IMG/VR virus record: IMGVR_UViG_3300029343_000516
DNA from: a virus
Direction: 5' to 3' (one strand)
DNA length: 64,000 nt
Positions 1-19,183 of the stretch are shown one piece after another. Numbering within the stretch: the stretch's first letter is position 1; the number at the start of each line of letters is the position of its first letter. A model generated the notes under the pieces. That model had not been told where the DNA came from. It saw only the letters and a list, made by a program, of their open reading frames with translations, and ran no database searches. The translations under genes were made by a program, and so were the position numbers.

Positions 1-93
1 CTGATGTTTCAATATCCAAATAATATTCATTGGTCAACGGATCAACATATATCCGATTGTCTGGTGAATCATAATCACAACGATTACACATAT

Positions 94-741
94 TTATTCT
101 CCATTCTTTTTATTTTCAGTGATATTCTGATTGCAAAACCCATCAACAAAAATTTTAAAATTGGTATATAAATCCTCAATCGAATCAGCTACCATACTTG
201 TACAGGGATTGCTCATGAATAAACTATACTGCTTGTTCTTATCTAATCCATTAGTGTCCATATATTTTGAAAATGCATCCAAACATGTTCTTAGATAATT
301 ACACGCTGAAGCATATGTTTCAAACATATATGCTGTTTCTACTCCAAGCATATATTCTTTTTTCTGCTTGTCATATGTAATATCTATATCATTCATGGTA
401 TACATATTAGCTTCGTGACCAGATAAATCATCCCAGCTAGTTATTCCCCAAATGAATTTCCAATCATCTGTTTCTATACAACAATCTCCATATTTCTTAT
501 CCATTGCTTCATTATATTTTTCTTCTTTTTTATATGCTCTCTCAGTACGCCAATAATCAATTTGCTTGAATGGAAAAAGTTCAACGATTTTACCATAATA
601 TATATTTGATAATGAGTTACATTTACCAATTGGATAACCATATTCATCTTTCTCCCAACTGTCCATACAAGCATAATCATGATTCTTGTTAAGTTTTCTA
701 TATTTACAAAAAATACAACTATATTTTTCTAATAGTTTCAT
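94..741 (-). CDS. hypothetical protein (215 aa), Cys/Trp-rich
   Basis: Long ORF in the co-directional minus-strand array. The upstream gene stops inside GGAGAATAA just before its ATG. No recognisable motif. Confidence 0.5.
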   Translation of the reverse strand: MKLLEKYSCIFCKYRKLNKNHDYACMDSWEKDEYGYPIGKCNSLSNIYYGKIVELFPFKQIDYWRTERAYKKEEKYNEAMDKKYGDCCIETDDWKFIWGITSWDDLSGHEANMYTMNDIDITYDKQKKEYMLGVETAYMFETYASACNYLRTCLDAFSKYMDTNGLDKNKQYSLFMSNPCTSMVADSIEDLYTNFKIFVDGFCNQNITENKKNGE

Positions 742-747
742 AAATAT

Positions 748-1320
748 TTATTCTCCGCTCTTAATGATTTCTTTTAATGTTCTTGGTGTATAGTTTATAT
801 AACTTTTCATACATCCGACATTCCACATATTACATGGCTTATCATATAAAGCTGTCATCTGATATTTTACCTGCTGCATCATATTATCTTCGAAACCTGT
901 ATGTACATGACCGTAGAGATGATAGCTTCCGTAATAATGATTCTTAAAGCATGGAATTGGATAATGACATAAAACTATAATCTTACCATCACCAATATCG
1001 AGTTCCTTGTAATCAGCGATCTCACAAAATCTACTCTGTAATTCTCTGTTCTTTAACAACTTACCATCATGATTACCCTTGATTAGATGTATATTCCCAT
1101 TCAGATTGTTAAAAATTTCAATAGTTTTTGTTGCGTTGTACCACGAAATATCTCCAAGCAGGTATACATCATCATCAATTTCTACTGTATTATTCCAATT
1201 TTTAATAATCGTCTCGTCATTCTCTTCAATTGATTTAAAAGGTCTATTGTCAAATGCCATGCAGTTTTTATGTCCAAAATGTAAATCTGATATAAAATAA
1301 TTCATATAATTATTCTCCAA
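748..1320 (-). CDS. calcineurin-like metallophosphoesterase (possible RNA 3'-phosphatase / cyclic phosphodiesterase)
   Basis: Metallophosphatase motifs DLHFGH, GDISWY, GNHD and GHVH in the canonical order. Overlaps the RNA ligase gene by 11 nt, so the two are co-translated. Confidence 0.8.
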   Translation of the reverse strand: MENNYMNYFISDLHFGHKNCMAFDNRPFKSIEENDETIIKNWNNTVEIDDDVYLLGDISWYNATKTIEIFNNLNGNIHLIKGNHDGKLLKNRELQSRFCEIADYKELDIGDGKIIVLCHYPIPCFKNHYYGSYHLYGHVHTGFEDNMMQQVKYQMTALYDKPCNMWNVGCMKSYINYTPRTLKEIIKSGE

Positions 1321-2236
1321 AAATAATCTTCTTAGCCCAATTCATAGTTGTAGAACCACACATCTTGCCAAAGAATTCACCAGCTTCAACAACTAATTCA
1401 TTCTCTTCTTTTACACAATCCTCAAAAATTCTCTTAGGTAAATTCTGTGCAACAATTCTCATGTCTTGTGGCTCAATCTTTTGAGGTAAAATACCTTCAT
1501 CAATCATCTTGTATAATTCTTTTTGGACACGATTTTTTGTAACAATCTGCTCCACAATCTCAGAAGCCTTTGCTTTAGCTGCTAATTTCTGTGGATCTTC
1601 AACTTTCTGTCTATGGTTGTCCTTCTTGATTTCGCTAAACTGTGAATTTACAATCTTTAATACAAATGGAGTCCTTGAGTTTGGATTGTTAAGTTCTGTT
1701 TGATTCTTAACAACAATTCCTTCAGGAATATCTACCGCAATATCTGACTTGTGCATAAACGACATACAATGTTCCCATGAGATAAATTCTCCATCATAAA
1801 ATGTCTGTACATATCTCAAATTTAATTCGTCAGCAAGTCTCTTAACCTCTGATTGAGGTAAATAACATTCATTCTCTTTGTCATATACATCGTAAAAATA
1901 TGATTTACCATAGGCTTCTGGAATATATTTAATAGTATGCTTTGTAAGCCACTCCATGAAAAATACATAATTTGGATATTTTGAAAATGGTTCAACTGCC
2001 AATGTCTGCACCCAATTCCAAAATCCATTTAATGTATTGTTATAATCAAGAGTCTGCCTTCTCGAAAATGCAACTAACTTATTTGTTTCTTTATCATAAG
2101 CAATAGCTGAATTGCTTCCATCTACCTTTTCCTGAATTACAATATGATCTCCTACATGGAAACCACCTGTATTCGCTACTGTTAATTCCGTATCTTCTTT
2201 GATACGTGATATATCCATAAATTTCTTTTGTTCCAT
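1310..2236 (-). CDS. ATP-dependent RNA ligase-like nucleotidyltransferase (Rnl family)
   Basis: Motif I EKVDGSN (lysine adenylylation site, KxDGxN) near the N-terminus. Size 308 aa. Adjacent to a phosphoesterase, as in RNA repair cassettes. RNA rather than DNA ligase is an inference from the motif variant. Confidence 0.6.
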   Translation of the reverse strand: MEQKKFMDISRIKEDTELTVANTGGFHVGDHIVIQEKVDGSNSAIAYDKETNKLVAFSRRQTLDYNNTLNGFWNWVQTLAVEPFSKYPNYVFFMEWLTKHTIKYIPEAYGKSYFYDVYDKENECYLPQSEVKRLADELNLRYVQTFYDGEFISWEHCMSFMHKSDIAVDIPEGIVVKNQTELNNPNSRTPFVLKIVNSQFSEIKKDNHRQKVEDPQKLAAKAKASEIVEQIVTKNRVQKELYKMIDEGILPQKIEPQDMRIVAQNLPKRIFEDCVKEENELVVEAGEFFGKMCGSTTMNWAKKIIFGE

Positions 2237-2278
2237 TTTCAGTACCTCTCTTTCTATTTTTTATGTATATTTATTCTC

Positions 2279-2551
2279 TTATCTCAGCTCAATCTCACCA
2301 TATTTTAATGTGTTATCTTCAAACATTTTGTTACCCTGATATTTACCAATAAGACAACGTTTAAACGAGGTCGTAACACTGGTTATTGGTGATACGAATT
2401 TTAATTCTTGCTCAATTGGCTTAATTAACGTATCAAGCGTCTCTTTGTTTGCAAATATATACGGCTCATGCCCTTCTTGATATACGAATTCTGCAATTTT
2501 TGTATTTAACTTATCCACATTTATCTTATCTACTATTGAAAATGTCTCCAT
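2279..2551 (-). CDS. hypothetical protein (90 aa)
   Basis: ORF in the tight minus-strand array. Confidence 0.45.
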   Translation of the reverse strand: METFSIVDKINVDKLNTKIAEFVYQEGHEPYIFANKETLDTLIKPIEQELKFVSPITSVTTSFKRCLIGKYQGNKMFEDNTLKYGEIELR

Positions 2552-2591
2552 TTATTGTTCTCCTTTCCAAACTTTAAATATAACTTTTCCA

Positions 2592-2816
2592 CTATCCGTA
2601 AATACAAATATTATCTTTATTTAGGTAAATATGAGAAAAACCACCTATTGTATCCGAATTCATATCATGAATCAAAATTGTTTTATCACCGAATCTTTCT
2701 TTTACAGCTTGTAATAATTCAATGAATTCTGAAATCGTATATTGTCCTTCTTTTTCTAAATAAAGAGCTTTTGTATTGTTACCATAAAAATCTACCCAGT
2801 CTTGTTCTTTGATCAA
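2592..2816 (-). CDS. hypothetical protein (74 aa)
   Basis: ORF in the tight minus-strand array. Confidence 0.45.
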   Translation of the reverse strand: MIKEQDWVDFYGNNTKALYLEKEGQYTISEFIELLQAVKERFGDKTILIHDMNSDTIGGFSHIYLNKDNICIYG

Positions 2817-2864
2817 TAATTTCTTGCCTCCAAACTCTAAGAAATGCTTCTTTAATTGGATTGT

Positions 2865-3143
2865 TTATTCTCCCATCTGATCTACAATACTCTGTAACTT
2901 ATCAACATATATTTGAGCTTCTTCCTTATTATTTAGTTGCTTAATATCAGCAGGTACAAAAGCTAACTTCGATTCACCGAAAACATCATTATTCGAACAA
3001 ACTTTCATAAACTGGCACATAGTTTCGGCATCACCCCGATCTAAATCTGGCTGTAAACAAATCACATCACCCTCCTGTAGATGCAGTTTTCTAACTTTAA
3101 TAAGCGTCTGTTTAAATAACTTCTTTTTCTGTCTTTTGTTCAT
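2865..3143 (-). CDS. hypothetical protein (92 aa)
   Basis: ORF in the array; ends GGAGAATAA. Confidence 0.45.
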   Translation of the reverse strand: MNKRQKKKLFKQTLIKVRKLHLQEGDVICLQPDLDRGDAETMCQFMKVCSNNDVFGESKLAFVPADIKQLNNKEEAQIYVDKLQSIVDQMGE

Positions 3144-3147
3144 ATTG

Positions 3148-3399
3148 TTATTCTCCTTCGAATATTACTCTTATTGGCTTTATAGCTTCGTCATTTGTTG
3201 GTATAAGAAACACTTTGTCATTTCCAACCTGATCTTTAAATATTTTTGGAGCTTCAACAAATGTAACTCTTTTTGAGCTATCACTATCCAGCCACTCTTT
3301 AAACTTTTTAAGATTTTCTTTTTCAGAAATTGCAGCACATGGACTTACTTTATCTATTAACTCTAAAAATTTTTGTCTTTCATCTTGTGATAACTCCAT
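3148..3399 (-). CDS. hypothetical protein (83 aa)
   Basis: ORF in the array; 4 nt gap to neighbours. Confidence 0.45.
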   Translation of the reverse strand: MELSQDERQKFLELIDKVSPCAAISEKENLKKFKEWLDSDSSKRVTFVEAPKIFKDQVGNDKVFLIPTNDEAIKPIRVIFEGE

Positions 3400-3403
3400 A
3401 CTG

Positions 3404-3649
3404 TTATTCTCCTATTTCTACATGGTCATTATCCAACAAACCAAATTTTCGTAAATAGTACTGTTTGGTTTTATCATCGACTCTACAATAAAAATTATGT
3501 CTTCCTGACTTCTGCAAAGATAATGTATTAATATTAAGCTCTGCGTTCATAATAATCAGTAATTCGTTTAATGTAATATCATAGCAATGAAACGTTTCGC
3601 CTATTAGAAGCTTATAATATTTCTTCTCTAATTCTGTTGTTTCTTCCAT
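3404..3649 (-). CDS. hypothetical protein (81 aa)
   Basis: ORF in the array. Confidence 0.45.
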   Translation of the reverse strand: MEETTELEKKYYKLLIGETFHCYDITLNELLIIMNAELNINTLSLQKSGRHNFYCRVDDKTKQYYLRKFGLLDNDHVEIGE

Positions 3650-3661
3650 ATTGACACCATC

Positions 3662-4054
3662 CTACACTTCTATATATTCCAATATCCAACTGTCGTATTT
3701 ATTTTCTTTAATTAATTGCTGATATAAATTTATCCATTCTTGTGCTGAAAGACCTTTGTACCTCCAAACGCATTCTTTCCAATGTCTGTGTATAAAATGA
3801 CCTCTTGTTTTTAACTCAATACATTTCACACATTTATCGTATAATTTCTTGGAATACCAATTCGATCTCCTTCTATTCCAGCCATTAATCCCGTTATCTA
3901 TAAATGCTTCAGTCGGATCATATCTGCTTCTCATATCAGTAAGAGTTCTGTCGTATAACTCAGTTTTTGCATTGTATAAACAATGAAGCAGAAAATAGAT
4001 GTCTTCATAATCATTTTTAAAATTCCATTCTTCAATATTTAAATCAAAATACAT
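3662..4054 (-). CDS. hypothetical protein (130 aa), Trp/Tyr-rich
   Basis: ORF in the array. Confidence 0.45.
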   Translation of the reverse strand: MYFDLNIEEWNFKNDYEDIYFLLHCLYNAKTELYDRTLTDMRSRYDPTEAFIDNGINGWNRRRSNWYSKKLYDKCVKCIELKTRGHFIHRHWKECVWRYKGLSAQEWINLYQQLIKENKYDSWILEYIEV

Positions 4055-4557
4055 TATTCTTCATTCCTTACTACATTAAACTTAATTGGTAACATAGCCG
4101 TAAATCTACTCTTCATCCAAGGTTTTTCTTTTGTTGCAAATTGATCACCAAATTCTTCTGCTAATACAAAATCTCCGACAGTGTAGACAATAGAATATCC
4201 AGTTAAATCTTTTGGAATCTCCTTATTTACATTACAGGTTTTAAGATGAATCATTTTATCTATGCACTCACCCATTAAATCTTGAAAGAATACAAACGTT
4301 CCATCACAATTGCAACGCTGCATTGTGAAATATTCAAAATCTGCATCTGGATCATGCTTAATAATTACATTAAAATAAGGTTTGTCGCCTTTAAGATAAG
4401 GTACATCTGCTAAAATTTTTCCATTTTTGGTGTAATTAACAACCGTAAATAACTCTCGTATGTCCTGTTCAATCATGGATTCATATTTATTATTCTCCAT
4501 GCCATTGCACTGACCTGACGCAATTCGTTCTTTTACAAATTCTAATGATTTACTCAT
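4054..4557 (-). CDS. hypothetical protein (167 aa)
   Basis: ORF in the array; start overlaps the upstream stop. Confidence 0.45.
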   Translation of the reverse strand: MSKSLEFVKERIASGQCNGMENNKYESMIEQDIRELFTVVNYTKNGKILADVPYLKGDKPYFNVIIKHDPDADFEYFTMQRCNCDGTFVFFQDLMGECIDKMIHLKTCNVNKEIPKDLTGYSIVYTVGDFVLAEEFGDQFATKEKPWMKSRFTAMLPIKFNVVRNEE

Positions 4558-4596
4558 AATTTACCTCCTCAAATGAAACGTGGTTTTCTTATTGGT

Positions 4597-5139
4597 TTAT
4601 TCTCCTAATGGTCTTTCATATGTAACTAATTTTTCAACAATTAGATCCTTTGGTAATAAATCTCTACAGAAATATGCCGTTGCAAATGGACTACCTTTTA
4701 CTACAGAGTCCATATGCTCTTTATTGTGATAGCAAATTCTTGCATCAAAACTAAGAATCTGAATACCATCTTTGAAATATTTATATCTTGTTTTACCTTG
4801 TAGGGAATTAAGCGGTAGAAGAACCGCAAATGGTTTGTTAAATGAATAAAGTCTTTCTAAGACTTTATCTTTGATTGAGAATGGTGGATTGCTAACTATG
4901 ATATCCCATTTTTCAGGTTCATAATTAAAAAAATCCTGACCTTCAGCTAATGAACTTCTGACTACATTGTATCCTTCCTCTTTTAGCCTGTTGTAGAAAG
5001 CAGACCAATTTTCATCAAATGGACACCATATAATTTTATCCTTTGGAAGATATTTAATAATATGATCTGTTGCGTAATAGGGCGTGTATAACTCATTATC
5101 TTCCTTATCTGATGTTAAATATCCAATATTTAATGCCAA
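4597..5139 (-). CDS. phage-type small DNA N6-adenine methyltransferase (T1-Dam-like, NPPF motif)
   Basis: YTPYY...CPFDEN...WDIIVSNPPFS is the architecture of the small phage Dam family (WxTP ... NPPY/F). Apparent TTG start with no obvious SD, so the start is uncertain. Confidence 0.55.
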   Translation of the reverse strand: MALNIGYLTSDKEDNELYTPYYATDHIIKYLPKDKIIWCPFDENWSAFYNRLKEEGYNVVRSSLAEGQDFFNYEPEKWDIIVSNPPFSIKDKVLERLYSFNKPFAVLLPLNSLQGKTRYKYFKDGIQILSFDARICYHNKEHMDSVVKGSPFATAYFCRDLLPKDLIVEKLVTYERPLGE

Positions 5140-5227
5140 AATTTGTTCACCAATAGTAGCTGCGCAGCTTTACTCACATGTGAACATTTTCCTTTCTTTA
5201 ATTGTAATTACATTGTTATATTCTCTG

Positions 5228-5425
5228 TTACTTTTTTCTAATGTCCCATAAATAGGGACTGCTACATCCACAATTATGAATACCGTCTCCAAGAACACAT
5301 CTTCTACAATCTTCATATTCTTCATGTGTTCTACAATACTCTTTAACTGTATTTATAGCATTTATGATTTCTTCATTTATGGATTCTGATTCAATATACT
5401 CTCTTTCTTCAATTCTCATAATCAA
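5228..5425 (-). CDS. hypothetical Cys-rich small protein (65 aa)
   Basis: ORF with a CxxC...HNCGC cysteine cluster. Confidence 0.4.
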   Translation of the reverse strand: MIMRIEEREYIESESINEEIINAINTVKEYCRTHEEYEDCRRCVLGDGIHNCGCSSPYLWDIRKK

Positions 5426-5485
5426 TCACCTTTGTCCTGAATATTGTATAGTTTTCGTGACAAGCAAAGAAACCAAAATTTCTTG

Positions 5486-5872
5486 TTATTTTTTGTCCAA
5501 ATAAACTATATTATCTACATTATAGTGAAACCCACCTATCTCTCCATTAAACCTACCTTTGACATACCACGCATAAGGACTGATACCTTCATTCATTTTC
5601 TCTGCAAGTTCATCAGCTTTTCTTTGATGTTCATCAGCTTCATTTTGCATAGATATTTTTTGAGAATCCCATATAAGATTTGGAATTGTATCTACACACT
5701 TTCTATACATCTCAGACTCTTTTATATATTCTCTTATCACTTTTGTCATTTTGGGAATATTGTCTTTTAATATTGGTTCATTGCTAAGTCCATATGGATA
5801 TAGGATTAAAACACTTCTGTCTATACATTCCATAGATATTAATTCTTGTACACAAGACTTTGGTTCTATCAA
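5486..5872 (-). CDS. hypothetical protein (128 aa)
   Basis: ORF in the array. Confidence 0.45.
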   Translation of the reverse strand: MIEPKSCVQELISMECIDRSVLILYPYGLSNEPILKDNIPKMTKVIREYIKESEMYRKCVDTIPNLIWDSQKISMQNEADEHQRKADELAEKMNEGISPYAWYVKGRFNGEIGGFHYNVDNIVYLDKK

Positions 5873-5891
5873 ATTATCACCTCCCAGATAT

Positions 5892-6626
5892 TTATTCTCT
5901 TATTTCAAATAACTTTTCTACTGCTTTAACTCGCTTTGTATTGTCAATCGTTCTTTTGACTTCCTGTTGCCAAATACATTCCCATTCTGAAGGAGCTTCA
6001 TGCTCACTGACTAAGACAATATTCCTCTCACTCATCTTCTCAGCCCAATTCCAAAATCTGTCATAATCAAAGTTCTTACTTGATCCATATTGTTTCGTAC
6101 CCTTATATGGAATATCGCAATAAAATAAGCAGTCAACTTTATCAGAATATAACTCTTCATAATCTCCACATTGGAATTGAATATCTTCTAACCTTGGAAT
6201 TTGTTCTAACAAATTTCTCTTAGCTTCGTCATAATAATTTCTTTCAGTTCCAGCTTTTGTATGTACGATACCTGAGTAACCGCCATCAAAGAATCTGCCG
6301 TTATAACTTGAGAGAAAACCAACTGCTCCAATATACCAATCAGGATATGTAGACAATCTTTTGTTAAAGCACTCTCTTACATCTGAATAGTGTTCTTTTG
6401 TAATAAATTCTGGGAGATTTTGAATCTGATTTAGATTCTTGAACATTTCAATAAGATATTTATGATTGTCAGAAGCGATTTTTGTGTCACACTGAACTTT
6501 GTCGATTACATTACAACCACCGCAAAATGGCTCTATGTATGTTTTGATATTATAATCTCGCAATCTTTCTTGAATAATCGGTAAAATATTATCAACTATA
6601 CGAGATTTTGAACCCATATATTTCAT
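5892..6626 (-). CDS. dam: Dam-family DNA adenine methyltransferase (D12 class N6-A MTase)
   Basis: N-terminal MKYMGSKSR (Dam YxGxK motif), FCGGCNV (SAM-binding motif I) and DIPY (DPPY catalytic motif IV). 244 aa. Confidence 0.75.
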   Translation of the reverse strand: MKYMGSKSRIVDNILPIIQERLRDYNIKTYIEPFCGGCNVIDKVQCDTKIASDNHKYLIEMFKNLNQIQNLPEFITKEHYSDVRECFNKRLSTYPDWYIGAVGFLSSYNGRFFDGGYSGIVHTKAGTERNYYDEAKRNLLEQIPRLEDIQFQCGDYEELYSDKVDCLFYCDIPYKGTKQYGSSKNFDYDRFWNWAEKMSERNIVLVSEHEAPSEWECIWQQEVKRTIDNTKRVKAVEKLFEIRE

Positions 6627-6695
6627 AAATTACTTGGAGTAAGGAATTCCTTCTTGTGTACACGAACCTCGTCTCCTTTCATTATTCTTATTCTC

Positions 6696-6980
6696 TTAAT
6701 TTTCCCAATCTAATGCCTGACCGCATTGATCACAATATTTAATGTCGATATCTTTGTAGCCATCATCACACAATATTTCTCCGCAAGTAGGACAATACCA
6801 TTCAAACGGAATTCTCTCTCCGCTATTTTTTACTTTCTTTGGTGTCTGCTTTTCAAGTGCCTGTATTGCCATTCCATAAGCATTTTCAAAAGAACATCCC
6901 CATGAAGTATCACATGGGATTGCTTTACCAAGTTCATTACAATCATATTTTAGTTCTTCGATAGCTTCACTTTCTGTCAT
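6696..6980 (-). CDS. hypothetical zinc-ribbon protein (94 aa)
   Basis: Paired CxxC motifs (CPTCGE ... CDQCGQ). Confidence 0.45.
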   Translation of the reverse strand: MTESEAIEELKYDCNELGKAIPCDTSWGCSFENAYGMAIQALEKQTPKKVKNSGERIPFEWYCPTCGEILCDDGYKDIDIKYCDQCGQALDWEN

Positions 6981-7023
6981 TTGTCACCTCCTAAATCACC
7001 AAGAAACTTCGGTTTACTGTGGT

Positions 7024-7350
7024 CTATAAAATTTCATCTAAAGCACACTCAATTTCATTAATAATTTCTTGCTTAGTAATTTCATAACCTTCCATCATTT
7101 CATCAATAGGTAAGTGATTTCTAAGTACAATATAAAGATATTCTGCGATACCAGTAGTGTCATACCCTTCAACTGTTAAACCTTCTGCTAAAGGTTGAAT
7201 AAAACCATTTCTGATATGATGTGCAAATTTATCTGCACCAATAATAATCTTATTACCTTTTGGAATTTTCACCTTTTCACCTGATAATGCCTTTTCAATT
7301 TCTACATCTTCTGTTGAGGTCAAAATCTGACCAATCTTGTAATCTGCCAT
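7024..7350 (-). CDS. hypothetical protein (108 aa)
   Basis: ORF in the array. Confidence 0.45.
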   Translation of the reverse strand: MADYKIGQILTSTEDVEIEKALSGEKVKIPKGNKIIIGADKFAHHIRNGFIQPLAEGLTVEGYDTTGIAEYLYIVLRNHLPIDEMMEGYEITKQEIINEIECALDEIL

Positions 7351-7495
7351 ACTACTTCTCCTTTATTATCTCAAAATCTTACTTAATCTCTTCACAACTT
7401 CTTCGCAAAATCTGTACAAACAAGTCTTCTTAAATGCTATTCTCAAATCATCAACAGTTTGTCTATATTGCTGACGTAATTCGTTGTCTATCATA

Positions 7496-7768
7496 CTATT
7501 CCTTCTTCTCAATAATAGTTACAGTACCCTCAAACACTCCAAAATTTGATGATTGTTGAAATGTATGCGTCTCCGCAATGTCGTCATCTGTCATAGGTCT
7601 TGTAAGATACCATAATGAATCATCTTTCCATGTAATCTCTTCAAGTTTCTGGTTTGGTTCAAGCTCAATTGTTGTTGATCCGCCAAAATCTTTTGTAACA
7701 GATTGGCATCCAGTCATTCCAAAACACAATGTTAATCCTAATGCAATTGCTAAAATTTTCTTCTTCAT
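7496..7768 (-). CDS. putative lipoprotein (90 aa)
   Basis: Signal peptide MKKKILAIALGLTLCFGMTGC with a lipobox Cys. Strong SD GGAGGA upstream. Confidence 0.55.
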   Translation of the reverse strand: MKKKILAIALGLTLCFGMTGCQSVTKDFGGSTTIELEPNQKLEEITWKDDSLWYLTRPMTDDDIAETHTFQQSSNFGVFEGTVTIIEKKE

Positions 7769-7773
7769 ATGAT

Positions 7774-7923
7774 TTATTCATCCTCCTTTAACACAAGAAT
7801 TGCTTTATAGTATCTACTATTGCATGAACTGGATTCTACTTTGTATCCATCATCCAAATAATCATTCATAGCATTCTCAAAATCATTGCTGTTTTCCATT
7901 TCTAAAATTACACAGTTCTTCAT
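7774..7923 (-). CDS. hypothetical small protein (49 aa)
   Basis: Unlisted short ORF MKNCVILEMENSN... with SD AAGGAGAA 8 nt upstream. Fills the gap between flanking genes. Confidence 0.35.
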   Translation of the reverse strand: MKNCVILEMENSNDFENAMNDYLDDGYKVESSSCNSRYYKAILVLKEDE

Positions 7924-7928
7924 ATTGT

Positions 7929-8189
7929 TTATTCTCCTTTGCTATATCCAGTCTCTTCAAGGAATTTATCAAATTCCTCTTTTGTCATATTGTTTGGATA
8001 ATACATGTCCATCACCATATCAAATGGCTGCAAATAATTATCTAACACATCTTCAGCATCTTCTTTTGCTTCCTGCATTTTCATATTGATATAATCTTCT
8101 TTCGTCATGTTCCATGCTGTAGGACAATCCGTGATACTCGAAAATCTACAATATAATCCATTTGGTTGCTTTGATACAAATCCTGCCAT
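7929..8189 (-). CDS. hypothetical protein (86 aa)
   Basis: ORF in the array. Confidence 0.45.
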   Translation of the reverse strand: MAGFVSKQPNGLYCRFSSITDCPTAWNMTKEDYINMKMQEAKEDAEDVLDNYLQPFDMVMDMYYPNNMTKEEFDKFLEETGYSKGE

Positions 8190-8190
8190 A

Positions 8191-8829
8191 TTATTCTCCT
8201 AATTCTTTTAGTGCATTAACAAGTTCAGCGAGTCTTGGATTCTCAGGATGCTCTTTTACCATCCTTTCATATAAAGCAATATTATTCATCTTTTCAATCT
8301 CAGACTTTAACTCTTTCTCAATAGAAGCTTTCTGCTTTGCGATTTCTTTCTGACGATTTTCCTCATCAATTCTTGCATTATACGCATTCATATTAACAAC
8401 TCCAACGACCTGTGCCGTTACGCACTTGCCATATGCTTCTACTGATCTTACTTCTTTTAAAATTCCAAGGACTCTATTATCTTTTCCTCTTGCATTTACA
8501 ATCACATATAACGGATGTTTTGTATCGTACTTAACAATTTCATTCATATCTTCATCATATAAAGCAAATCCATAATCCTTCTTATTGTAATCATCTACCA
8601 AATTTACAATCGCCACTTTATTAAATCCTGTCATTTTATTATCCTCACTTTCAACTTTTTCTACTGATAAAACGTTATATCCTTGTTTTCTATTCTTTAA
8701 TTGAACCATAACATATTTCTGTGTACCTACATTATATGTATCTATAACAAATCCAGTCTGTCCCCTACTATTACAAGAACTTTTTATTATCACTTTATCA
8801 TTTATCTGAATATTCCTCATAGGCTGCAC
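8191..8829 (-). CDS. hypothetical protein (212 aa), C-terminal coiled coil
   Basis: ORF in the array. Confidence 0.45.
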   Translation of the reverse strand: MQPMRNIQINDKVIIKSSCNSRGQTGFVIDTYNVGTQKYVMVQLKNRKQGYNVLSVEKVESEDNKMTGFNKVAIVNLVDDYNKKDYGFALYDEDMNEIVKYDTKHPLYVIVNARGKDNRVLGILKEVRSVEAYGKCVTAQVVGVVNMNAYNARIDEENRQKEIAKQKASIEKELKSEIEKMNNIALYERMVKEHPENPRLAELVNALKELGE

Positions 8830-8841
8830 CTCCTATTATTT

Positions 8842-9378
8842 TTATTCTCCTAACTGTTCTAAGAACTCATTGCCACAATCACAAAATTCTCTAATCATAG
8901 ACTTCATTAATCCCCATGACATACCAGAATGTCCCTGATTTTTCATAATTTCAATTCCATCTTGGATAGATTTTTCTTTAACAGTTTTGATAATATCTAA
9001 GCACTGACCAAGTTCCATTCCTCTGTATAGATCATTAAGTCGAATAGGAACACATTTATCCCACGTATTCCATTTATCTTTAGATAAAACCTTATGACCT
9101 TCTTCTATCCAATATTTTGATAATTCAGGGATTTTTCTTTTATGTTCTTCCTCTTCACGAATTAATCTTTGACGACTTTCTTCTTGCTCTTTATTAAATT
9201 CGTCAAAAGTTTTACCTATACAAAGCATATAAGCATCATCTAAAGACATATCAGATGTTAGTTTATTCTCATTGAATTCACCGCAATATTTATTTCCATC
9301 CTTTGCTCTTTCGTGTAATTCTTTTACAGCTCGTTCAATAGTCCAACCGCAACAAAAATCAATCTCTCTATATTCCAT
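8842..9378 (-). CDS. hypothetical protein (178 aa)
   Basis: ORF in the array; ends GGAGAATAA. Confidence 0.45.
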   Translation of the reverse strand: MEYREIDFCCGWTIERAVKELHERAKDGNKYCGEFNENKLTSDMSLDDAYMLCIGKTFDEFNKEQEESRQRLIREEEEHKRKIPELSKYWIEEGHKVLSKDKWNTWDKCVPIRLNDLYRGMELGQCLDIIKTVKEKSIQDGIEIMKNQGHSGMSWGLMKSMIREFCDCGNEFLEQLGE

Positions 9379-9916: not shown

Positions 9917-10654
9917 TTACGCCTGATACACAAAACTTGGCATTGGCTGTAATTTAAACAGATTTTTCTCATGCATTGAATCAATCTTAGCTTTTACTTC
10001 CTCACTTGGCTCAATTCCATCTCTGATATATGCATCTAATTCAGCATAAGTAAATCCAAGGTTATCTTCATCAGTCTTTCCACAAAGACCATCGGTAGGT
10101 GTCTTATCAACTAATTCTGACGGAAGCCCTAACTCACGACCGATAGCTTTAACCTCTGTTACTGTAAGATTTTCTAGTGGACTAAAATCACCAGCAGCAT
10201 CGCCAAACTTGCTACAATATCCAACCCAATTTTCTGAAAGATTACACGTATTAGCGACACGACCATTTACTGTCTGTGATACTGCATAAAGTGTAGCCAT
10301 ACGAATACGAGCAGGAAGATTTGTTATTGTCTGAATTGATAACTCTTCATCTAATGATGTTTTAATTTCATATTCAGTAACATTCACAATTGTTCCGACT
10401 GGAATAATAGTACGTGGAATGTCTAAAAAACTGCAAAGTTTACGACTATATTCAATATCTCTTTGTCTTCCCTGTGGCATCATCACACCAAAAACTCTAT
10501 CCTTGCCAAGAGCTTCACAACATAAGCCAGCAACAACGCTTGAATCCTTACCGCCAGAAATTCCAACTACTGCCATACAATCTTTACCATTCTGTTCAAA
10601 CCAATCTCTAATCCACTCTACGATTTCATTCTTTACTTTCTTAGCATCAAACAT
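9917..10654 (-). CDS. nadE: NH3-dependent NAD+ synthetase
   Basis: PP-loop SGGKDSS. KFGDAAGDFSPL and PTDGL...EDNLGFTYAELDAY align with E. coli NadE (KYGDGGTDINPL; PTADLEDD...LGVTYDNIDDYLEG). 245 aa. Confidence 0.85.
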   Translation of the reverse strand: MFDAKKVKNEIVEWIRDWFEQNGKDCMAVVGISGGKDSSVVAGLCCEALGKDRVFGVMMPQGRQRDIEYSRKLCSFLDIPRTIIPVGTIVNVTEYEIKTSLDEELSIQTITNLPARIRMATLYAVSQTVNGRVANTCNLSENWVGYCSKFGDAAGDFSPLENLTVTEVKAIGRELGLPSELVDKTPTDGLCGKTDEDNLGFTYAELDAYIRDGIEPSEEVKAKIDSMHEKNLFKLQPMPSFVYQA

Positions 10655-10670
10655 TTATATATTCTCCTTT

Positions 10671-11297
10671 CTACATTCGATTCATCACATCATAGAACCG
10701 AATTAAATACTCATATACATTTCTAGGAACTAATTCTTTTACCTTTTCAAATTCACCCTTTTCACATAAATCTCTAACCAAACTTGAAGAAGTATGATTT
10801 TTTGGTATCTGAATTTCTGTGAAGTGATCTTTATATTCCATAAGATTTGCTTCTCTTAAAGCAGTCTCAAGATTCTGACCTTCTCTCACACATGCTACAA
10901 AATTATATTCCTCAACAAACGGTTTCCAATTATACCAAGTTGTAAGTGGTTCAATATTATCCATTCCTAAACAAATATAGTATTCGTTGAAGATATAATC
11001 TTTTTCATTTATATCTCTTATCTGAGTAATAGTATTGTATGTCCTCTGTGGAAAGAAGCTGGTTGTTTCAACTTCGGATGCCCACATATTATTTTCCTCA
11101 CAATTTGGCATTGAATTAATCAGCGATACTCGACAATATCCAGGTATCAAAGTCTTTTTCTTCGCAACATATGTATCATGTGCAGGAATAAACAATATAG
11201 CATCAGCATTAACCGCTTTTTTAGCAGTCAATGCCATATCAACATGGGCGTTGGTAATTGGATTAAAACTTCCTGGTATAAGTAAAATTTTATTCAT
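10671..11297 (-). CDS. nadD: nicotinate/nicotinamide mononucleotide adenylyltransferase
   Basis: N-terminal LLIPGSFNPITNAH is the (H/T)xGH nucleotidyltransferase motif of NadD/NMNAT. 208 aa, flanked by nadE and pncB. Confidence 0.8.
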   Translation of the reverse strand: MNKILLIPGSFNPITNAHVDMALTAKKAVNADAILFIPAHDTYVAKKKTLIPGYCRVSLINSMPNCEENNMWASEVETTSFFPQRTYNTITQIRDINEKDYIFNEYYICLGMDNIEPLTTWYNWKPFVEEYNFVACVREGQNLETALREANLMEYKDHFTEIQIPKNHTSSSLVRDLCEKGEFEKVKELVPRNVYEYLIRFYDVMNRM

Positions 11298-12498
11298 GAT
11301 TCATTCTCCAATTAATACATCTCTTTAGATAATCAACATAATCAGGGTTTTTACACATACCTTTACCTTCTACATCAGACACTTTTGCAACATCCATACC
11401 GTTACATTTAGTGGTTTTCATTACAATATTTAAAACAGGAACATCTGTGTCATTACTCAAATAAGTACCAATTCCAAATGCAACGTTTACTCTATCATGG
11501 AAGTGTCTGAATAACTTATCAGCTCTTTCAAAATCAAGACTGTCACTAAACAGAAGTGTCTTTGTCTTAGGATTGATACCAAGTGACTCATAATGATTAA
11601 TCATCTTTTCACCCCATTCAATCGGATCTCCACTATCATGTCTTACACCACTGAATAATGTTGCATATGTCAACTGAAAATCTTTCAAGAAACAATCAGT
11701 TGTAATTGTGTCTGTGAGAGCAATACCATTTAACACACCATACTCTCTAACCCATGCGTCTAAGGCATACCAGTTTGAATATGCTGGATTGTGCTTGTGA
11801 TTTCCCTGACCAGAACACATAATCCATTCATGAGCCATAGTTCCAACAGGCGTGAGATTATATTTCTTTGCGAGATATACATTAGATGTACCAACAAATT
11901 TAGATGGACTGTGTAATGTATCATTCAAATGTGAAAACTTCTCAACAGCTAACTCCTGTGCTTCAGCAGAAAGTCTTCTTCTAAGACCAAATTCAGAAAA
12001 TGTACCAGCGTACCAATGACCGCTTCTGAGATTTTCATACTTTTCATCTAATCTCTTTTTGAAACTATTAAGCAATTCCTCATAGTTATATGCCATTCTA
12101 AAATATACTTCGTTCACAATCGCAAGTGTAGGAATCTCATACATAGATGTATTAAGCCATGTACCAAATGTTTCGATAGAAAGACCGCAATCTGAATCTG
12201 TTGTAATCTCAAAATCCTCATATCTGGGCTGCCATAATCTTAAAAAATCAACATACGAGCCCTTTATCCATTTGATATTGTCAAGGTAAGTAAGTTCATC
12301 TTCTGTGAATCTCAAACCACAATATAATTTAATCTGTCTGCGAATCTCTTCTACCATTTCTTGTGTAAAGTGAACATCCTTATTACGACATTTAAAACTC
12401 CAAGTGGTTTTATAATCACTAAACTGATGATAAATAGCCTGTCCCATACTTAATTTGTACATATCGGTTTCTAATAAACTTGTAATAATCTGCTCCAT
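11290..12498 (-). CDS. pncB: nicotinate phosphoribosyltransferase
   Basis: LLETDMYKLSMGQAIYHQF matches E. coli PncB LLDTDAYKLHMQQAVFHHY, and the roughly 400 aa length fits. I placed the start at the internal Met (MEQIITSLL), which has SD GAAGGAAA. The longer listed ORF start would read through the upstream gene. Confidence 0.8.
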   Translation of the reverse strand: MEQIITSLLETDMYKLSMGQAIYHQFSDYKTTWSFKCRNKDVHFTQEMVEEIRRQIKLYCGLRFTEDELTYLDNIKWIKGSYVDFLRLWQPRYEDFEITTDSDCGLSIETFGTWLNTSMYEIPTLAIVNEVYFRMAYNYEELLNSFKKRLDEKYENLRSGHWYAGTFSEFGLRRRLSAEAQELAVEKFSHLNDTLHSPSKFVGTSNVYLAKKYNLTPVGTMAHEWIMCSGQGNHKHNPAYSNWYALDAWVREYGVLNGIALTDTITTDCFLKDFQLTYATLFSGVRHDSGDPIEWGEKMINHYESLGINPKTKTLLFSDSLDFERADKLFRHFHDRVNVAFGIGTYLSNDTDVPVLNIVMKTTKCNGMDVAKVSDVEGKGMCKNPDYVDYLKRCINWRMNHE

Positions 12499-12499
12499 A

Positions 12500-13688: not shown

Positions 13689-13691
13689 ATT

Positions 13692-17110: not shown

Positions 17111-17545
17111 TTACTTCCCAAATGGATTCTCCATAATACAATGGTCAACCATATCTTTAAATGCAAAAGGTGAATCAATCACTCTATTTGAATATCTGAA
17201 ACGCTTTAAAAACTCAAGTACCTCATGTGCATCTCTATGTGATAATGGAATAAATGATACATACTCTGGATGACCTTTAATGCATACAACCGCCCAAGAA
17301 TGGTCATCAGAACAAAAACCAACATCCGTTCCAACATCTACCATCGAGTTCATCATCTTGTGACAATCATCAACCAATTTATAAGAATCTTCATATGCAA
17401 TAGTTGCATCAGACAACCGTATATTGGCATATTCGCATCTTCTTCTTGCGTTATTGTATGATTTTTTAGCTGCTTCCACTTGAAATAAATCATCTTCTAA
17501 TAACCAATGTCTCAATTTATCTCGTATTTTATCCTTTAATTTCAC
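17111..17545 (-). CDS. hypothetical protein (144 aa)
   Basis: ORF in the array. Confidence 0.45.
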   Translation of the reverse strand: MKLKDKIRDKLRHWLLEDDLFQVEAAKKSYNNARRRCEYANIRLSDATIAYEDSYKLVDDCHKMMNSMVDVGTDVGFCSDDHSWAVVCIKGHPEYVSFIPLSHRDAHEVLEFLKRFRYSNRVIDSPFAFKDMVDHCIMENPFGK

Positions 17546-17551
17546 ACTCTC

Positions 17552-18216: not shown

Positions 18217-18221
18217 CTCAC

Positions 18222-18422: not shown

Positions 18423-18432
18423 TTATTTCACC

Positions 18433-19173: not shown

Positions 19174-19183
19174 AGTTCTTACC

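What the first reader, a model, noticed from the sequence alone, without database searches (positions are those of the whole stretch)
748..2236. Overlapping RNA ligase and metallophosphoesterase genes form an RNA-healing and sealing cassette
The ligase (motif I EKVDGSN) and a calcineurin-like phosphoesterase (DLHFGH, GNHD, GHVH) overlap by 11 nt. Healing of 2',3'-cyclic phosphate ends by a metallophosphoesterase followed by Rnl ligation is the T4 Pnkp/Rnl1 and bacterial Pnkp/Hen1 logic for undoing anticodon-nuclease damage. No polynucleotide kinase P-loop gene is visible anywhere in the window, so either the host supplies the 5'-kinase or one of the unassigned neighbours is a novel kinase. The adjacent 215-aa gene at 94-741 is the nearest candidate. 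Its distance from the Tpt1 block suggests two separately acquired RNA-repair modules.
Basis: partly seen in the sequence, partly recalled or inferred. Interest (0 to 1): 0.6.

Follow-up and report, generated by a model that had tools for sequence, protein, structure and literature searches.

The report
Phage RNA ligase beside a phosphoesterase
A human-gut phage carries a T4-Rnl2-like RNA ligase gene next to a metallophosphoesterase gene in a spot where related phages swap different RNA-repair gene sets. The two genes may mend cut RNA together, but they are a loose, kinase-less pairing rather than a fixed cassette.

Summary
Both genes are real, on the minus strand.

**Ligase (1310-2236, 308 aa).** It is an ATP-dependent RNA ligase with T4 Rnl2-like architecture: nucleotidyltransferase motifs plus a helical C-terminal domain. 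It is not a DNA ligase.

**Phosphoesterase (MPE).** All five calcineurin-type motifs are intact. It belongs to the uncharacterised phage family phrog_547; its only solved relative is Aquifex aq_1665.

**The 11-nt overlap is an ORF-calling artefact.** The likely start is ATG 1305, 4 nt after the ligase stop, behind a GGAG.

**Support for "heal and seal".** In about 460 phage genomes a phrog_547 MPE lies contiguous with an Rnl1-like ligase and a kinase-only Pnk. In sister gut phages the same locus holds this ligase, an Rnl5-like ligase plus Pnk-HD, or a trifunctional Pnkp.

**Evidence against a fixed cassette.**
- Only 8 of 36 near-identical ligase loci keep the MPE.
- In a backbone-anchored sample the MPE is no commoner with a ligase (5/34) than without (6/22).

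**Other points.** No polynucleotide kinase was found in the window or the downstream flank of sister contigs. The 215-aa neighbour shows nothing kinase-like. Verdict: partly supported, a variant of a known kind, moderate interest.

The parts
1310..2236 (-). RNA ligase gene (308 aa), Rnl2-like: nucleotidyltransferase domain plus helical C-terminal domain
   Evidence: - Family hits: PF09414 5e-22; phrog_548 1e-47.
- hhalign against T4 Rnl2: probability 95.6%, E 1e-8, residues 25-274 against 21-294.
- Profile against PDB: Rnl3 (8uce) 5e-8, T4 Rnl2 (2hvq) 2.5e-6, NgrRnl 1e-3.
- AF2 model pLDDT 88; Foldseek top hits are MthRnl and T4 Rnl2.
- Invariant residues K37, E95, D116, E172, K177, K194, R236.
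2111..2131 (-). Ligase motif I, EKVDGSN (adenylylated lysine K37)
   Evidence: Read from the sequence. K37, D39, G40 and N42 are invariant in 21- and 44-sequence alignments. The motif aligns to T4 Rnl2 EKIHGTN (K35).
748..1305 (-). Metallophosphoesterase gene (185 aa from ATG 1305), phrog_547 / aq_1665-like
   Evidence: - Family hits: phrog_547 2e-44; Metallophos 8e-7; PDB 1xm7 4e-15 with a profile.
- The five MPE motifs are invariant: D7/H9, G51-D52, G77-N78-H79, H114, H133/H135.
- Gene callers on sister contigs aa.
1315..1318 (-). GGAG ribosome-binding site for the phosphoesterase, embedded in the last codons (Gly-Glu) of the ligase
   Evidence: Sequence read...ATT TTT GGA GAA TAA TTAT ATG. 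Spacing is 9 nt to ATG 1305. The TTG at 1320 that creates the 11-nt overlap lies in this element.
94..741 (-). 215-aa neighbour of unknown function (conserved N-terminal cysteines); not shown to belong to the system
   Evidence: - No Pfam, PHROG, NCBIfam or PADLOC hit, and no Walker A motif.
- AF2 pLDDT 51, so no usable model.
- C9, C12, C25 and C41 are invariant.
- It follows the MPE in some loci, but is also found with Rnl5+Pnk-HD and no MPE.
2279..2551 (-). 90-aa backbone gene (c11) marking the upstream edge of the variable RNA-repair slot
   Evidence: Used as an anchor. In 56 sister loci the DNA just downstream holds an Rnl2-like ligase, Rnl5+Pnk-HD, a trifunctional Pnkp, c138/c139, or nothing.
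2..91 (-). 5' part of the 58-aa backbone gene c3 (cut by the window start), the downstream edge of the slot
   Evidence: tblastn 87% identity to residues 1-30 of c3. Synteny LIG-MPE-U215-c3 is seen in L013, L014 and L027.

Best explanation
**Setting.** The window comes from a large (about 100-190 kb), 33% G+C phage of the human gut. Its host is probably a Clostridia/Lachnospiraceae bacterium. All genes are co-directional and tightly packed. At 748-2236 two accessory genes sit in a locus that, across sister phages, is a swap-site for RNA-repair modules.

**Shown**
1. The 308-aa protein is an ATP-dependent RNA ligase of the Rnl2/Rnl3/Rnl5 clade with Rnl2-type architecture.
2. The 185-aa protein is a catalytically intact binuclear metallophosphoesterase of phage family phrog_547.
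3. The two are separated by 4 nt, and the downstream gene's RBS lies inside the ligase's last codons, so they are almost certainly co-transcribed and translationally coupled.

**Inferred**
- The ligase is adenylylated on K37 and seals 3'-OH/5'-PO4 breaks in structured RNA (tRNA stems and loops).
- The phosphoesterase acts as a 2',3'-cyclic-phosphodiesterase / 3'(2')-phosphatase. It would convert the ends left by metal-independent anticodon nucleases or MazF-type RNases into ligatable 3'-OH ends.
- This would be the same division of labour as in the MPE / Rnl1-like ligase / kinase-only Pnk triad of many Gram-negative myophages.

**Limits.** No 5'-kinase is present. On its own the pair could repair only breaks that already carry a 5'-phosphate, or it depends on a kinase encoded outside the 64-kb window or by the host. 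The partnership is facultative: each gene assorts independently among close relatives.
For: **Ligase identity:**

**MPE identity and intact active site:**

**Gene junction:**

**Family-level linkage of phrog_547 MPEs to RNA repair**
- Pseudomonas phage phiK7A1 and E. coli phage J-01 have MPE (43% and 32% identical to the window MPE in tblastn; both phrog_547) directly followed by an Rnl1-like ligase (phrog_562 and RNA_lig_T4_1 shown for J-01; the phiK7A1 ligase has no Pfam hit and is called by annotation and sequence resemblance) and a 131-134-aa AAA_33 kinase with no phosphatase domain.
- A tblastn with the three proteins fused finds 460 phage records where one place covers at least 80% of the fusion. 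Hosts include Escherichia, Klebsiella, Cronobacter, Pseudomonas, Vibrio and Acinetobacter. One record is annotated 'RNA ligase | phosphodiesterase | polynucleotide kinase'.
- In Listeria phage LP-125 a phrog_547 MPE lies about 1.1-1.2 kb from the homologous ligase, in a cluster with RtcB, a DUF1768 protein and a HAD-like protein.

**Locus-level evidence**
- 34 of 56 backbone-anchored sister loci carry an RNA-ligase module in this slot: Rnl2-like, Rnl5-like + Pnk-HD, or trifunctional Pnkp.

**Window context**
- Tpt1, a CCA-adding enzyme with HD domain, Sir2, Macro, four NAD+ salvage/synthesis enzymes and a MazF-type RNase.
Against: - **No biochemistry** exists for any phrog_547 / aq_1665-type MPE. 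The only PDB relative is an unannotated structural-genomics entry.
- **The adjacency is not conserved.** Only 8 of 36 loci with a ligase at least 91% identical keep an intact MPE, and 2 more keep only a 32-aa remnant. Most MPE-anchored loci have no Rnl2-like ligase within 8 kb.
- **No positive association in the unbiased sample.** In the c11-anchored sample the MPE is not enriched with ligase modules: 5/34 against 6/22, odds ratio 0.46, p = 0.31. It is commonest next to two unknown small genes, c138/c139 (5/10).
- **Redundancy.** The MPE also follows modules that already contain a 3'-healing domain, namely Pnk-HD and the lambda-type MPE of the trifunctional Pnkp. There it would be redundant as a healer.
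- **Wider distribution than the ligases.** phrog_547 occurs in about 1950 phage records, and no ligase is annotated or detected next to the MPE in the loci inspected for a T5-like phage, a 114-kb Vibrio phage and an Enterococcus phage.
- **No kinase** in the window or in 8 kb downstream in sister contigs.
- **Motif V** of the ligase has K-x-V instead of the K-x-K of T4 Rnl2.
Confidence: 0.5

Rival explanations
1. Neighbours by accident. The ligase is a stand-alone nick-sealing RNA ligase, as T4 Rnl2 is in T4. The phosphoesterase is an independent accessory gene acting on something other than RNA ends. Candidates are nucleotide or cyclic-nucleotide signals of host defence, host nucleic acid degradation, or nucleotide-pool remodelling. 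The two genes merely occupy adjacent positions in a hypervariable accessory-gene region.
For: - The two genes assort independently among near-identical phages, and there is no enrichment in the backbone-anchored sample.
- The MPE is commonest beside c138/c139, and it is found with self-sufficient heal-and-seal modules.
- phrog_547 is in about 1950 phage records against 334 for this ligase family, including lineages where no ligase was seen beside the MPE.
- A different phage MPE (mycobacteriophage gp48) is reported to act as a phosphodiesterase/nuclease that damages host DNA (PMC12287305).
- Calcineurin-like T5 A1 homologues have been proposed as signal-degrading enzymes (PMC7824862).
Against: - The conserved MPE / ligase / kinase-only-Pnk triad in 460 phage records is hard to explain unless the family has an RNA-end function in at least those phages.
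- The mycobacteriophage MPE is not detectably related: Bxb1 gp47 against this MPE gives E = 2.1.
- There are no PADLOC hits.
Confidence: 0.35
2. A DNA (or RNA-primed DNA) break-processing pair, analogous to the bacterial Lhr / PdeM-MPE / ATP-dependent ligase damage-response cluster. The MPE would be an end-trimming nuclease, and the ligase would seal nicks with an RNA 3'-OH strand in hybrids.
For: - A weak match of the MPE to NCBIfam TIGR04123, 'ligase-associated DNA damage response endonuclease PdeM' (E 2.4e-4).
- T4 Rnl2-type enzymes can seal nicks in RNA:DNA hybrids when the 3'-OH strand is RNA (established knowledge, e.g. PMC3884662).
Against: - The PdeM score is 20.6 bits against a cut-off of 150.
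- The ligase lacks an OB domain, and all of its best sequence and structure matches are RNA ligases.
- The neighbours in the slot of sister phages are RNA-specific modules: Rnl5, Pnk-HD, Pnkp.
Confidence: 0.05
3. One reading: the adjacent 215-aa protein (94-741) is a novel polynucleotide 5'-kinase that completes the cassette.
For: It directly follows the MPE in this window and in about 15 sister loci, and no other kinase was found.
Against: - It has no Walker A motif, no hit in Pfam, PHROG, NCBIfam or PADLOC, and no confident fold.
- Its conserved features are four N-terminal cysteines, which look like a metal-binding or zinc-ribbon motif rather than a nucleotide-binding one.
- It occurs beside Rnl5 + Pnk-HD, where a kinase is already present, and is absent from most ligase loci.
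Confidence: 0.03

Closest known systems
T4 RNA ligase 2 (Rnl2, gp24.1) and the PF09414 Rnl2/Rnl3/Rnl5 clade
   Same: - Same fold and domain order: N-terminal nucleotidyltransferase domain, then a helical C-terminal domain, with no N-terminal OB or dimerisation domain.
- Motifs I, III, IIIa and IV align.
- C-domain Arg (T4 R266) aligns with the invariant R236.
- Like T4 Rnl2, it is a stand-alone gene without a dedicated kinase.
   Different: - About 17-23% identity only.
- It fails the NCBIfam Rnl2 equivalog cut-off (31 against 197 bits).
- Motif V is K-x-V rather than K-x-K.
- It belongs to a separate phage family (phrog_548) shared with Herelleviridae of Staphylococcus, Bacillus and Listeria. 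I found no biochemical characterisation of that family in the literature searches made here.
Phage triad: phrog_547 MPE, Rnl1-like ligase (phrog_562), kinase-only Pnk (phrog_2071/AAA_33). Examples: Pseudomonas phage phiK7A1, E. coli phage J-01/muut, Klebsiella phage KB57, Vibrio phage Quinn.
   Same: The same phosphoesterase family (30-43% identity, same PHROG) sits immediately next to an RNA ligase in one transcription unit.
   Different: - There the order is MPE then ligase, the ligase is Rnl1-like, and a kinase is present. The arrangement is conserved across about 460 genomes.
- Here the order is ligase then MPE, the ligase is Rnl2-like, there is no kinase, and the adjacency is not conserved even among near-identical phages.
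Bacterial Pnkp (of Pnkp/Hen1) and T4 Pnkp + Rnl1
   Same: Pnkp's healing module is also a binuclear metallophosphoesterase (PMC3675462, PMC1920235). A trifunctional Pnkp-like protein (AAA_33 + Metallophos + RNA_lig_T4_1, 732 aa) occupies this very slot in some sister phages.
   Different: - This window has no kinase and no Hen1.
- The MPE is the aq_1665 type, not the lambda-phosphatase-like type of Pnkp: the profile search of PDB returns no Pnkp or lambda-phosphatase chain at E up to 0.1.
- The ligase is Rnl2-like, not Rnl1/Rnl4-like.
Aquifex aeolicus aq_1665 (PDB 1xm7)
   Same: It is the only solved relative of the phosphoesterase, aligned end to end at E 4e-15.
   Different: It is a structural-genomics entry with no assigned function, so it gives no substrate information.

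Membership tests
ATP-dependent RNA ligase, Rnl2-like (PF09414) | Motif I KxDG with the adenylylated lysine | tested here: met
   EKVDGSN at 2111-2131. K37, D39 and G40 are invariant and align to T4 Rnl2 K35.
ATP-dependent RNA ligase, Rnl2-like (PF09414) | Motifs III, IIIa and IV of the nucleotidyltransferase domain | tested here: met
   E95 (FMEW), Y115-D116 (YDV) and E172-G173..K177 (EGIVVK) are invariant or nearly invariant and align to T4 Rnl2 E99, F119-D120 and E204.
ATP-dependent RNA ligase, Rnl2-like (PF09414) | Motif V with two lysines (K-x-K; T4 Rnl2 K225/K227) | tested here: not met
   Only the first lysine is present (K194, invariant). The second position is V196 throughout the family, including the Herelleviridae members.
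ATP-dependent RNA ligase, Rnl2-like (PF09414) | Rnl2-type all-helical C-terminal domain; no OB domain | tested here: met
   - AF2 predicts helices 215-306.
- hhalign extends to T4 Rnl2 residue 294, with R266 aligned to R236.
- TIGR02307 gives a local hit at 164-280.
- Foldseek aligns full-length 2hvr/2hvq.
ATP-dependent RNA ligase, Rnl2-like (PF09414) | Scores above the NCBIfam Rnl2 equivalog cut-off (TIGR02307) | tested here: not met
   31.3 bits against a cut-off of 197. It is a separate subfamily (phrog_548).
ATP-dependent RNA ligase, Rnl2-like (PF09414) | Seals 3'-OH/5'-PO4 nicks in duplex RNA | not testable with these tools
   Needs an enzyme assay.
Calcineurin-like metallophosphoesterase superfamily | Five metal-binding/catalytic motifs: DxH, GD, GNH(D/E), H, GHxH | tested here: met
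   D7/H9, G51-D52, G77-N78-H79, H114 and H133/H135 are invariant in alignments of 32 and 11 sequences.
Lambda / Ser-Thr protein phosphatase-like MPE clade (includes the CthPnkp phosphatase module) | Sequence similarity to lambda phosphatase or the Pnkp phosphatase domain | tested here: not met
   The profile search of PDB returns only 1xm7 below E 0.01. There is no phrog_246 (NinI-like phosphatase) hit.
Heal-and-seal RNA repair system (T4 Pnkp/Rnl1; bacterial Pnkp/Hen1; phage MPE-Rnl1-Pnk triad) | A polynucleotide 5'-kinase | tested here: not met
   - No Pnk-type P-loop protein in the 64 kb.
- None in 8 kb downstream in sister contigs.
- The rest of the phage genome was not available.
Heal-and-seal RNA repair system (T4 Pnkp/Rnl1; bacterial Pnkp/Hen1; phage MPE-Rnl1-Pnk triad) | A 2',3'-phosphoesterase acting on RNA ends | not testable with these tools
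   A candidate (the phrog_547 MPE) is present. Its family is linked to ligase + Pnk in 460 phage records, but no member has been assayed.
Heal-and-seal RNA repair system (T4 Pnkp/Rnl1; bacterial Pnkp/Hen1; phage MPE-Rnl1-Pnk triad) | Conserved genetic linkage of the healing and sealing genes | tested here: not met
   8 of 36 near-identical ligase loci keep the MPE. In the backbone-anchored sample the counts are 5/34 against 6/22, p = 0.31.

The most novel reading that the evidence does not exclude
The phrog_547 / aq_1665-type metallophosphoesterase is a previously uncharacterised stand-alone RNA 2',3'-end-healing enzyme.

In this gut-phage clade it would be one interchangeable part of a cassette-exchange hot spot. 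There, four different RNA-sealing solutions replace one another under pressure from host tRNA-cutting defences: Rnl2-like, Rnl5-like + Pnk-HD, Rnl1-like, and trifunctional Pnkp.

In this particular phage the MPE could open cyclic phosphates to 2'-PO4/3'-OH ends. Those ends would be sealed by the Rnl2-like ligase and then cleaned by the phage Tpt1, using NAD+ from the phage's own NAD+ salvage/synthesis enzymes. That would be a fungal/plant-style tRNA repair route carried by a bacteriophage.
Probability: 0.2. Interest if true: 0.65.

Novelty: new variant of a known kind. Interest (0 to 1): 0.4.

Why it matters
- **A large, untested enzyme family.** Phage RNA repair is the classic counter to anticodon-nuclease defences. 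Only the T4 (Pnkp/Rnl1) and bacterial Pnkp/Hen1 chemistries are understood. A family of about 2,000 phage phosphoesterases (phrog_547) has no known substrate.
- **A direct experiment.** Its conserved linkage to an RNA ligase and a kinase-only Pnk, plus this looser pairing with an Rnl2-like ligase, gives a direct and cheap biochemical hypothesis to test.
- **Host-phage conflict in the gut.** Swapping of alternative RNA-repair modules at one locus among near-identical gut phages suggests ongoing selection by RNA-targeting immunity in gut Clostridia. It could help to find the matching host nucleases.
- **If the rival is right.** The family would then be a candidate for another anti-defence activity.

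Tried and rejected
- **DNA search of phage genomes.** Megablast of the first 12 kb found nothing. The phage is known only from metagenomes.
- **Single-sequence PDB search for the ligase.** phmmer found only noise, namely sliding clamps at E of about 0.1. A profile was needed.
- **The 215-aa neighbour as a kinase.** There were no family hits, and the AF2 model was too poor (pLDDT 51) to justify a fold search. Rejected for lack of any support.
- **Mycobacteriophage MPE (gp48 / Bxb1 gp47) as a functional precedent.** It is not detectably related (E = 2.1). I kept it only as a general analogy for the rival explanation.
- **Fetching distant MPE loci with a diverse alignment.** This failed because no stretch was conserved enough. 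It was replaced by a tblastn with a fused three-protein query.
- **Burroughs & Aravind 2016.** This is the main survey of RNA-repair operons, but it is not held in the library. I could not check whether it already names this MPE family.
- **PADLOC scan.** The ligase, MPE, the 215-aa protein, c11, c138 and c139 gave nothing meaningful.
- **The apparent 'Pnk-HD' hit in L013 and in the window.** It is only the HD domain of a CCA-adding-type enzyme.
- **Promoter/terminator scan of 1-6000.** No signal above the shuffled expectation.
Full report
**What is in the sequence**

All sizeable ORFs of the window lie on the minus strand, and the G+C content is 32.6%.

The ORF at 1310-2236 encodes 308 aa. 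It contains EKVDGSN (2111-2131).

The next ORF opens mechanically at TTG 1320 and ends at 748. It carries DLHFGH (1270-1287), GNHD (1066-1077) and GHVH (901-912).

- The sequence reads ...ATT TTT GGA GAA TAA TTAT ATG. The TTG is therefore part of a GGAG ribosome-binding site (1315-1318) built into the ligase's last two codons.
- An ATG at 1305 follows the GGAG by 9 nt and the ligase stop codon by 4 nt.
- Every homologue starts at this methionine.
- Gene calls on near-identical public contigs give a 185-aa product beginning 4 nt after the ligase stop.
- I therefore take 748-1305 as the gene. The two genes abut and are probably translationally coupled, but they do not overlap.

**The ligase**

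Family and structure evidence:
- Pfam RNA_ligase (PF09414) 5e-22 and phrog_548 'RNA ligase' 1e-47.
- A single-sequence search of PDB found nothing.
- A 21-sequence profile hits archaeal Rnl3 (8uce, 5e-8; 2vug), full-length T4 Rnl2 (2hvq, 2.5e-6) and Naegleria Rnl5.
- hhalign against T4 Rnl2 gives 95.6% probability, E 1e-8, over residues 25-274 against 21-294. That span covers the whole nucleotidyltransferase domain and the first half of the Rnl2 C-terminal domain.
- An AlphaFold model (pLDDT 88) has a beta-rich N-terminal domain and four long C-terminal helices. Its best Foldseek matches are MthRnl, T4 Rnl2 with nicked duplex, and other RNA ligases. DNA ligases come far lower and match only on the nucleotidyltransferase core.

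Invariant residues:
- K37 (motif I), E95 (III), D116 (IIIa), E172 and K177 (IV), K194 (V), and R236 in the C-domain, which aligns with T4 Rnl2 R266.

Two departures from T4 Rnl2:
- Motif V reads K-x-V, not K-x-K.
- The protein scores 31 bits against the 197-bit cut-off of the NCBIfam Rnl2 equivalog.

It is thus an Rnl2-like RNA ligase of a separate subfamily. Its named relatives (28-39% identity) are the 'RNA ligase' genes of 334 phage records, which are Staphylococcus, Bacillus, Listeria and Lactobacillus phages, many of them Herelleviridae.

**The phosphoesterase**

- Pfam Metallophos 8e-7 and phrog_547 'phosphoesterase' 2e-44.
- All five calcineurin-type motifs are invariant across close and distant homologues, so the enzyme should be active.
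- The only solved relative is Aquifex aq_1665 (1xm7; 2e-10 single sequence, 4e-15 profile). That is a structural-genomics entry with no function.
- It is not lambda-phosphatase-like.
- Its resemblance to the DNA-repair nuclease PdeM is marginal: 20.6 bits against a cut-off of 150.
- The one phage MPE I found with published biology is mycobacteriophage gp48, a phosphodiesterase reported to damage host DNA (PMC12287305). It is not detectably related: Bxb1 gp47 against this protein gives E = 2.1.

**Is it a cassette? Evidence inside the phage's own clade**

The ligase has 768 and the MPE 3812 database homologues. The closest come from human-gut metagenomes, on contigs of 100-425 kb.

I fetched 67 IMG/VR loci by the ligase and 47 by the MPE, each with up to 8 kb of flank on each side.

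Results from tblastn:
- Of 36 loci whose ligase is at least 91% identical, only 8 keep an intact MPE directly downstream.
- Two loci (L039, L040) keep a 32-aa remnant.
- Thirty loci with a 56% ligase have none within the fetched flanks.
- Conversely, most MPE loci have no Rnl2-like ligase within the fetched flanks.

Clustering all ORFs of these loci showed what replaces the ligase. Between two backbone genes, c11 (window 2279-2551) and c3 (window 2-91), lies a variable slot. It holds one of the following:
- this Rnl2-like ligase;
- an Rnl5-like ligase (PHA02142 OB domain + RNA_ligase) plus a 296-aa kinase-HD protein (AAA_33; phrog_505 'polynucleotide kinase');
- a 732-aa trifunctional Pnkp-like protein (AAA_33 + Metallophos + RNA_lig_T4_1);
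- an Rnl1-like ligase;
- two unknown small genes, c138 and c139;
- nothing.

HNH homing endonucleases and, in some loci, a TnpB-like gene sit beside the slot.

To avoid ascertainment bias I re-sampled by the backbone gene c11. Among 56 loci with at least 5 kb downstream:
- 34 carry an RNA-ligase module;
- the MPE is present in 5 of those 34 and in 6 of the other 22 (odds ratio 0.46, Fisher p = 0.31);
- the MPE is commonest next to c138/c139 (5 of 10).

The loci are related genomes, so the test is only indicative. Even so, there is clearly no positive association. The locus is an RNA-repair hot spot, but ligase and MPE assort independently within it.

**Evidence from unrelated phages**

The MPE family is widespread: tblastn hits in 1950 phage records.

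In the loci I inspected for a T5-like Salmonella phage, a 114-kb Vibrio phage and an Enterococcus phage, no ligase is annotated nearby.

In Pseudomonas phage phiK7A1 and E. coli phage J-01 the picture differs:
- The MPE is 43% and 32% identical to the window MPE (tblastn), and both are phrog_547.
- It is immediately followed by an Rnl1-like ligase. For J-01 this is shown by phrog_562 and RNA_lig_T4_1. The phiK7A1 ligase has no Pfam hit and is called by its annotation and its resemblance to the J-01 protein.
- Next comes a 131-134-aa AAA_33 kinase (phrog_2071, related to phrog_505 polynucleotide kinase) that has no phosphatase domain.

A tblastn with the three J-01 proteins fused found 460 phage records in which one place covers at least 80% of the fusion.
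- The hosts include Escherichia, Klebsiella, Cronobacter, Pseudomonas, Vibrio and Acinetobacter.
- One depositor annotated the trio as RNA ligase, phosphodiesterase and polynucleotide kinase.

A kinase-only Pnk next to a separate phosphoesterase and a ligase looks like a split version of T4 Pnkp + Rnl1. This is the best available argument that phrog_547 enzymes heal RNA 3' ends.

In Listeria phage LP-125 a phrog_547 MPE lies about 1.1-1.2 kb from the homologue of this ligase. The cluster also contains RtcB, a DUF1768 protein and a HAD-like protein.

**The missing kinase and the 215-aa neighbour**

No kinase was found:
- The only Walker-A proteins in the window are an ABC-transporter ATPase and a chance match.
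- tblastn with the sister-phage Pnk proteins finds only the HD domain of the CCA-adding enzyme.
- Pfam scans of 59 of the 62 minus-strand ORFs of at least 110 aa show no kinase or Hen1.
- The 8 kb beyond the window start in sister contigs has none either.
- The remainder of the genome could not be examined.

The 215-aa protein gives no support for a kinase role:
- It has no hit in four HMM libraries, no P-loop and no confident predicted fold.
- Its conserved features are four N-terminal cysteines.
- It also occurs next to Rnl5 + Pnk-HD modules that already have a kinase.

**Window context**

- Tpt1/KptA lies at 21432-21995, a CCA-adding enzyme with HD domain at 19446-20834, Sir2 at 18433-19173 and a Macro-like protein at 17552-17995.
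- Four NAD+ salvage/synthesis enzymes lie at 9917-14201: an isochorismatase-family protein (possible nicotinamidase), NAPRTase, an adenylyltransferase and NAD synthase.
- This matches the NAD+/ADP-ribose-linked RNA-repair networks that Iyer, Aravind and colleagues described for large phages. Those authors also list calcineurin-like phosphatases among occasional end-cleaning enzymes (PMC7824862, PMC9503650).
- The ligase slot is about 19 kb from Tpt1. It is far more variable than a fixed operon would be, so independent acquisition is plausible. I did not test it.

**Conclusion**

The most likely reading (about 0.5) is a facultative pairing.
- An Rnl2-like ligase seals 3'-OH/5'-PO4 RNA breaks.
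- A co-expressed phrog_547 phosphoesterase widens the range of repairable ends by removing 2',3'-cyclic or 3'-phosphates.
- Without a kinase, the pair is incomplete for the classic 5'-OH products of anticodon nucleases.

The main rival (about 0.35) is that the two genes are merely neighbours in a hypervariable accessory region and that the MPE has another substrate.

Either way this is a variant of a known kind of system, not a new kind. Its value lies in pointing to a large, untested enzyme family and to a module-swapping RNA-repair locus in gut phages.

Noticed in passing
window 9917-14201 (-): Four NAD+ salvage/synthesis genes on a phage: an isochorismatase-family protein, possibly a nicotinamidase (13692-14201), NAPRTase (11290-12621), a cytidylyltransferase-like NaMN/NMN adenylyltransferase (10671-11297) and NAD synthase (9917-10654). 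A DUF5662 protein and a weak radical-SAM-like ORF lie between them. Together they resemble a phage NAD+ reconstitution pathway, but of the nicotinate (Preiss-Handler) type.
   Followed up: partly
window 17111-21995 (-): A second RNA-repair / ADP-ribose block: Tpt1/KptA (21432-21995, 1e-46), an unknown 201-aa protein (20872-21477; one HxT-type match, not the paired motifs expected of a 2H phosphoesterase), a CCA-adding enzyme with HD domain (19446-20834), Sir2 (18433-19173), a weak Macro hit (17552-17995) and an unknown 144-aa protein.
   Followed up: partly
sister loci L013-L189 (slot between c11 and c3): Near-identical gut phages carry alternative RNA-repair modules at one locus: an Rnl2-like ligase; an Rnl5-like ligase + Pnk-HD; a 732-aa kinase-MPE-Rnl1 trifunctional Pnkp; an Rnl1-like ligase; or none. 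An HNH homing-endonuclease gene often sits directly upstream.
   Followed up: yes
L016, L019, L023, L024, L093 (e.g. L024 9802-11232): A 462-476-aa TnpB-like gene (Cas12f1-like TNB domain 2e-15, OrfB_IS605) is inserted just downstream of the ligase or MPE in several sister phages. This suggests IS605-type elements use the same hot spot.
   Followed up: partly
L091, L094, L095, L099, L120, L123, L146, L153, L157, L175, L181, L182, L188: Two small overlapping genes of unknown function (c138, 131 aa; c139, 126 aa) are the commonest upstream neighbours of the MPE when no ligase is present. They have no Pfam or PADLOC hit.
   Followed up: partly
L039 and L040, 8931-9026: A 32-aa remnant of the MPE N-terminus (59% identity) sits between the ligase and the 215-aa gene. 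It looks like a deletion scar showing loss of the MPE from a ligase-MPE-U215 ancestor.
   Followed up: no
window 37746-39694 (-), 31556-31630 and 37099-37172 (-): A MazF/PemK-type endoribonuclease toxin gene (8e-20) lies next to a tyrosine integrase (4e-27). There are also two tRNA-Gln(UUG) genes. MazF leaves 2',3'-cyclic-P/5'-OH ends (established knowledge), the very damage that heal-and-seal systems repair.
   Followed up: no
window 25036-29270 (-): ABC-transporter genes on a phage: a permease (28524-29270), an ATPase (27920-28531), a weak sub-threshold PspA/IM30-like match (26635-27372), and a substrate-binding (NMT1-like) protein fused to an OmpA domain (25036-26619).
   Followed up: no
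window 94-9378 (-), many gene ends: Many proteins end in ...Gly-Glu-stop (ligase IFGE, MPE KSGE, U215 KNGE, and the ORFs ending at 2865, 3148, 3404, 4597, 8191 and 8842). The GGAG ribosome-binding site of the next gene is encoded as GGA GAA in the last two codons. This points to systematic translational coupling.
   Followed up: partly
window 4597-5139, 5892-6626, 14694-16202, 34200-35648 (-): Three DNA methyltransferase-like genes (a weak EcoRI-methylase-like hit, a Dam-like D12 class, and a C5-cytosine class with an inserted Zn-ribbon-like segment) and a sub-threshold GmrSD-N-like hit (3.5e-5, 24.5 bits against a cut-off of 33.2).
   Followed up: no
L198 (Fusicatenibacter saccharivorans scaffold NZ_JAQEGR010000015.1) 1043-3464: An Rnl5-like ligase and a 51%-identical Rnl2-like ligase lie in tandem on a 97-kb scaffold of a cultured Lachnospiraceae isolate. 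This is a hint to the host range of this phage group (a prophage or a co-assembled phage).
   Followed up: no
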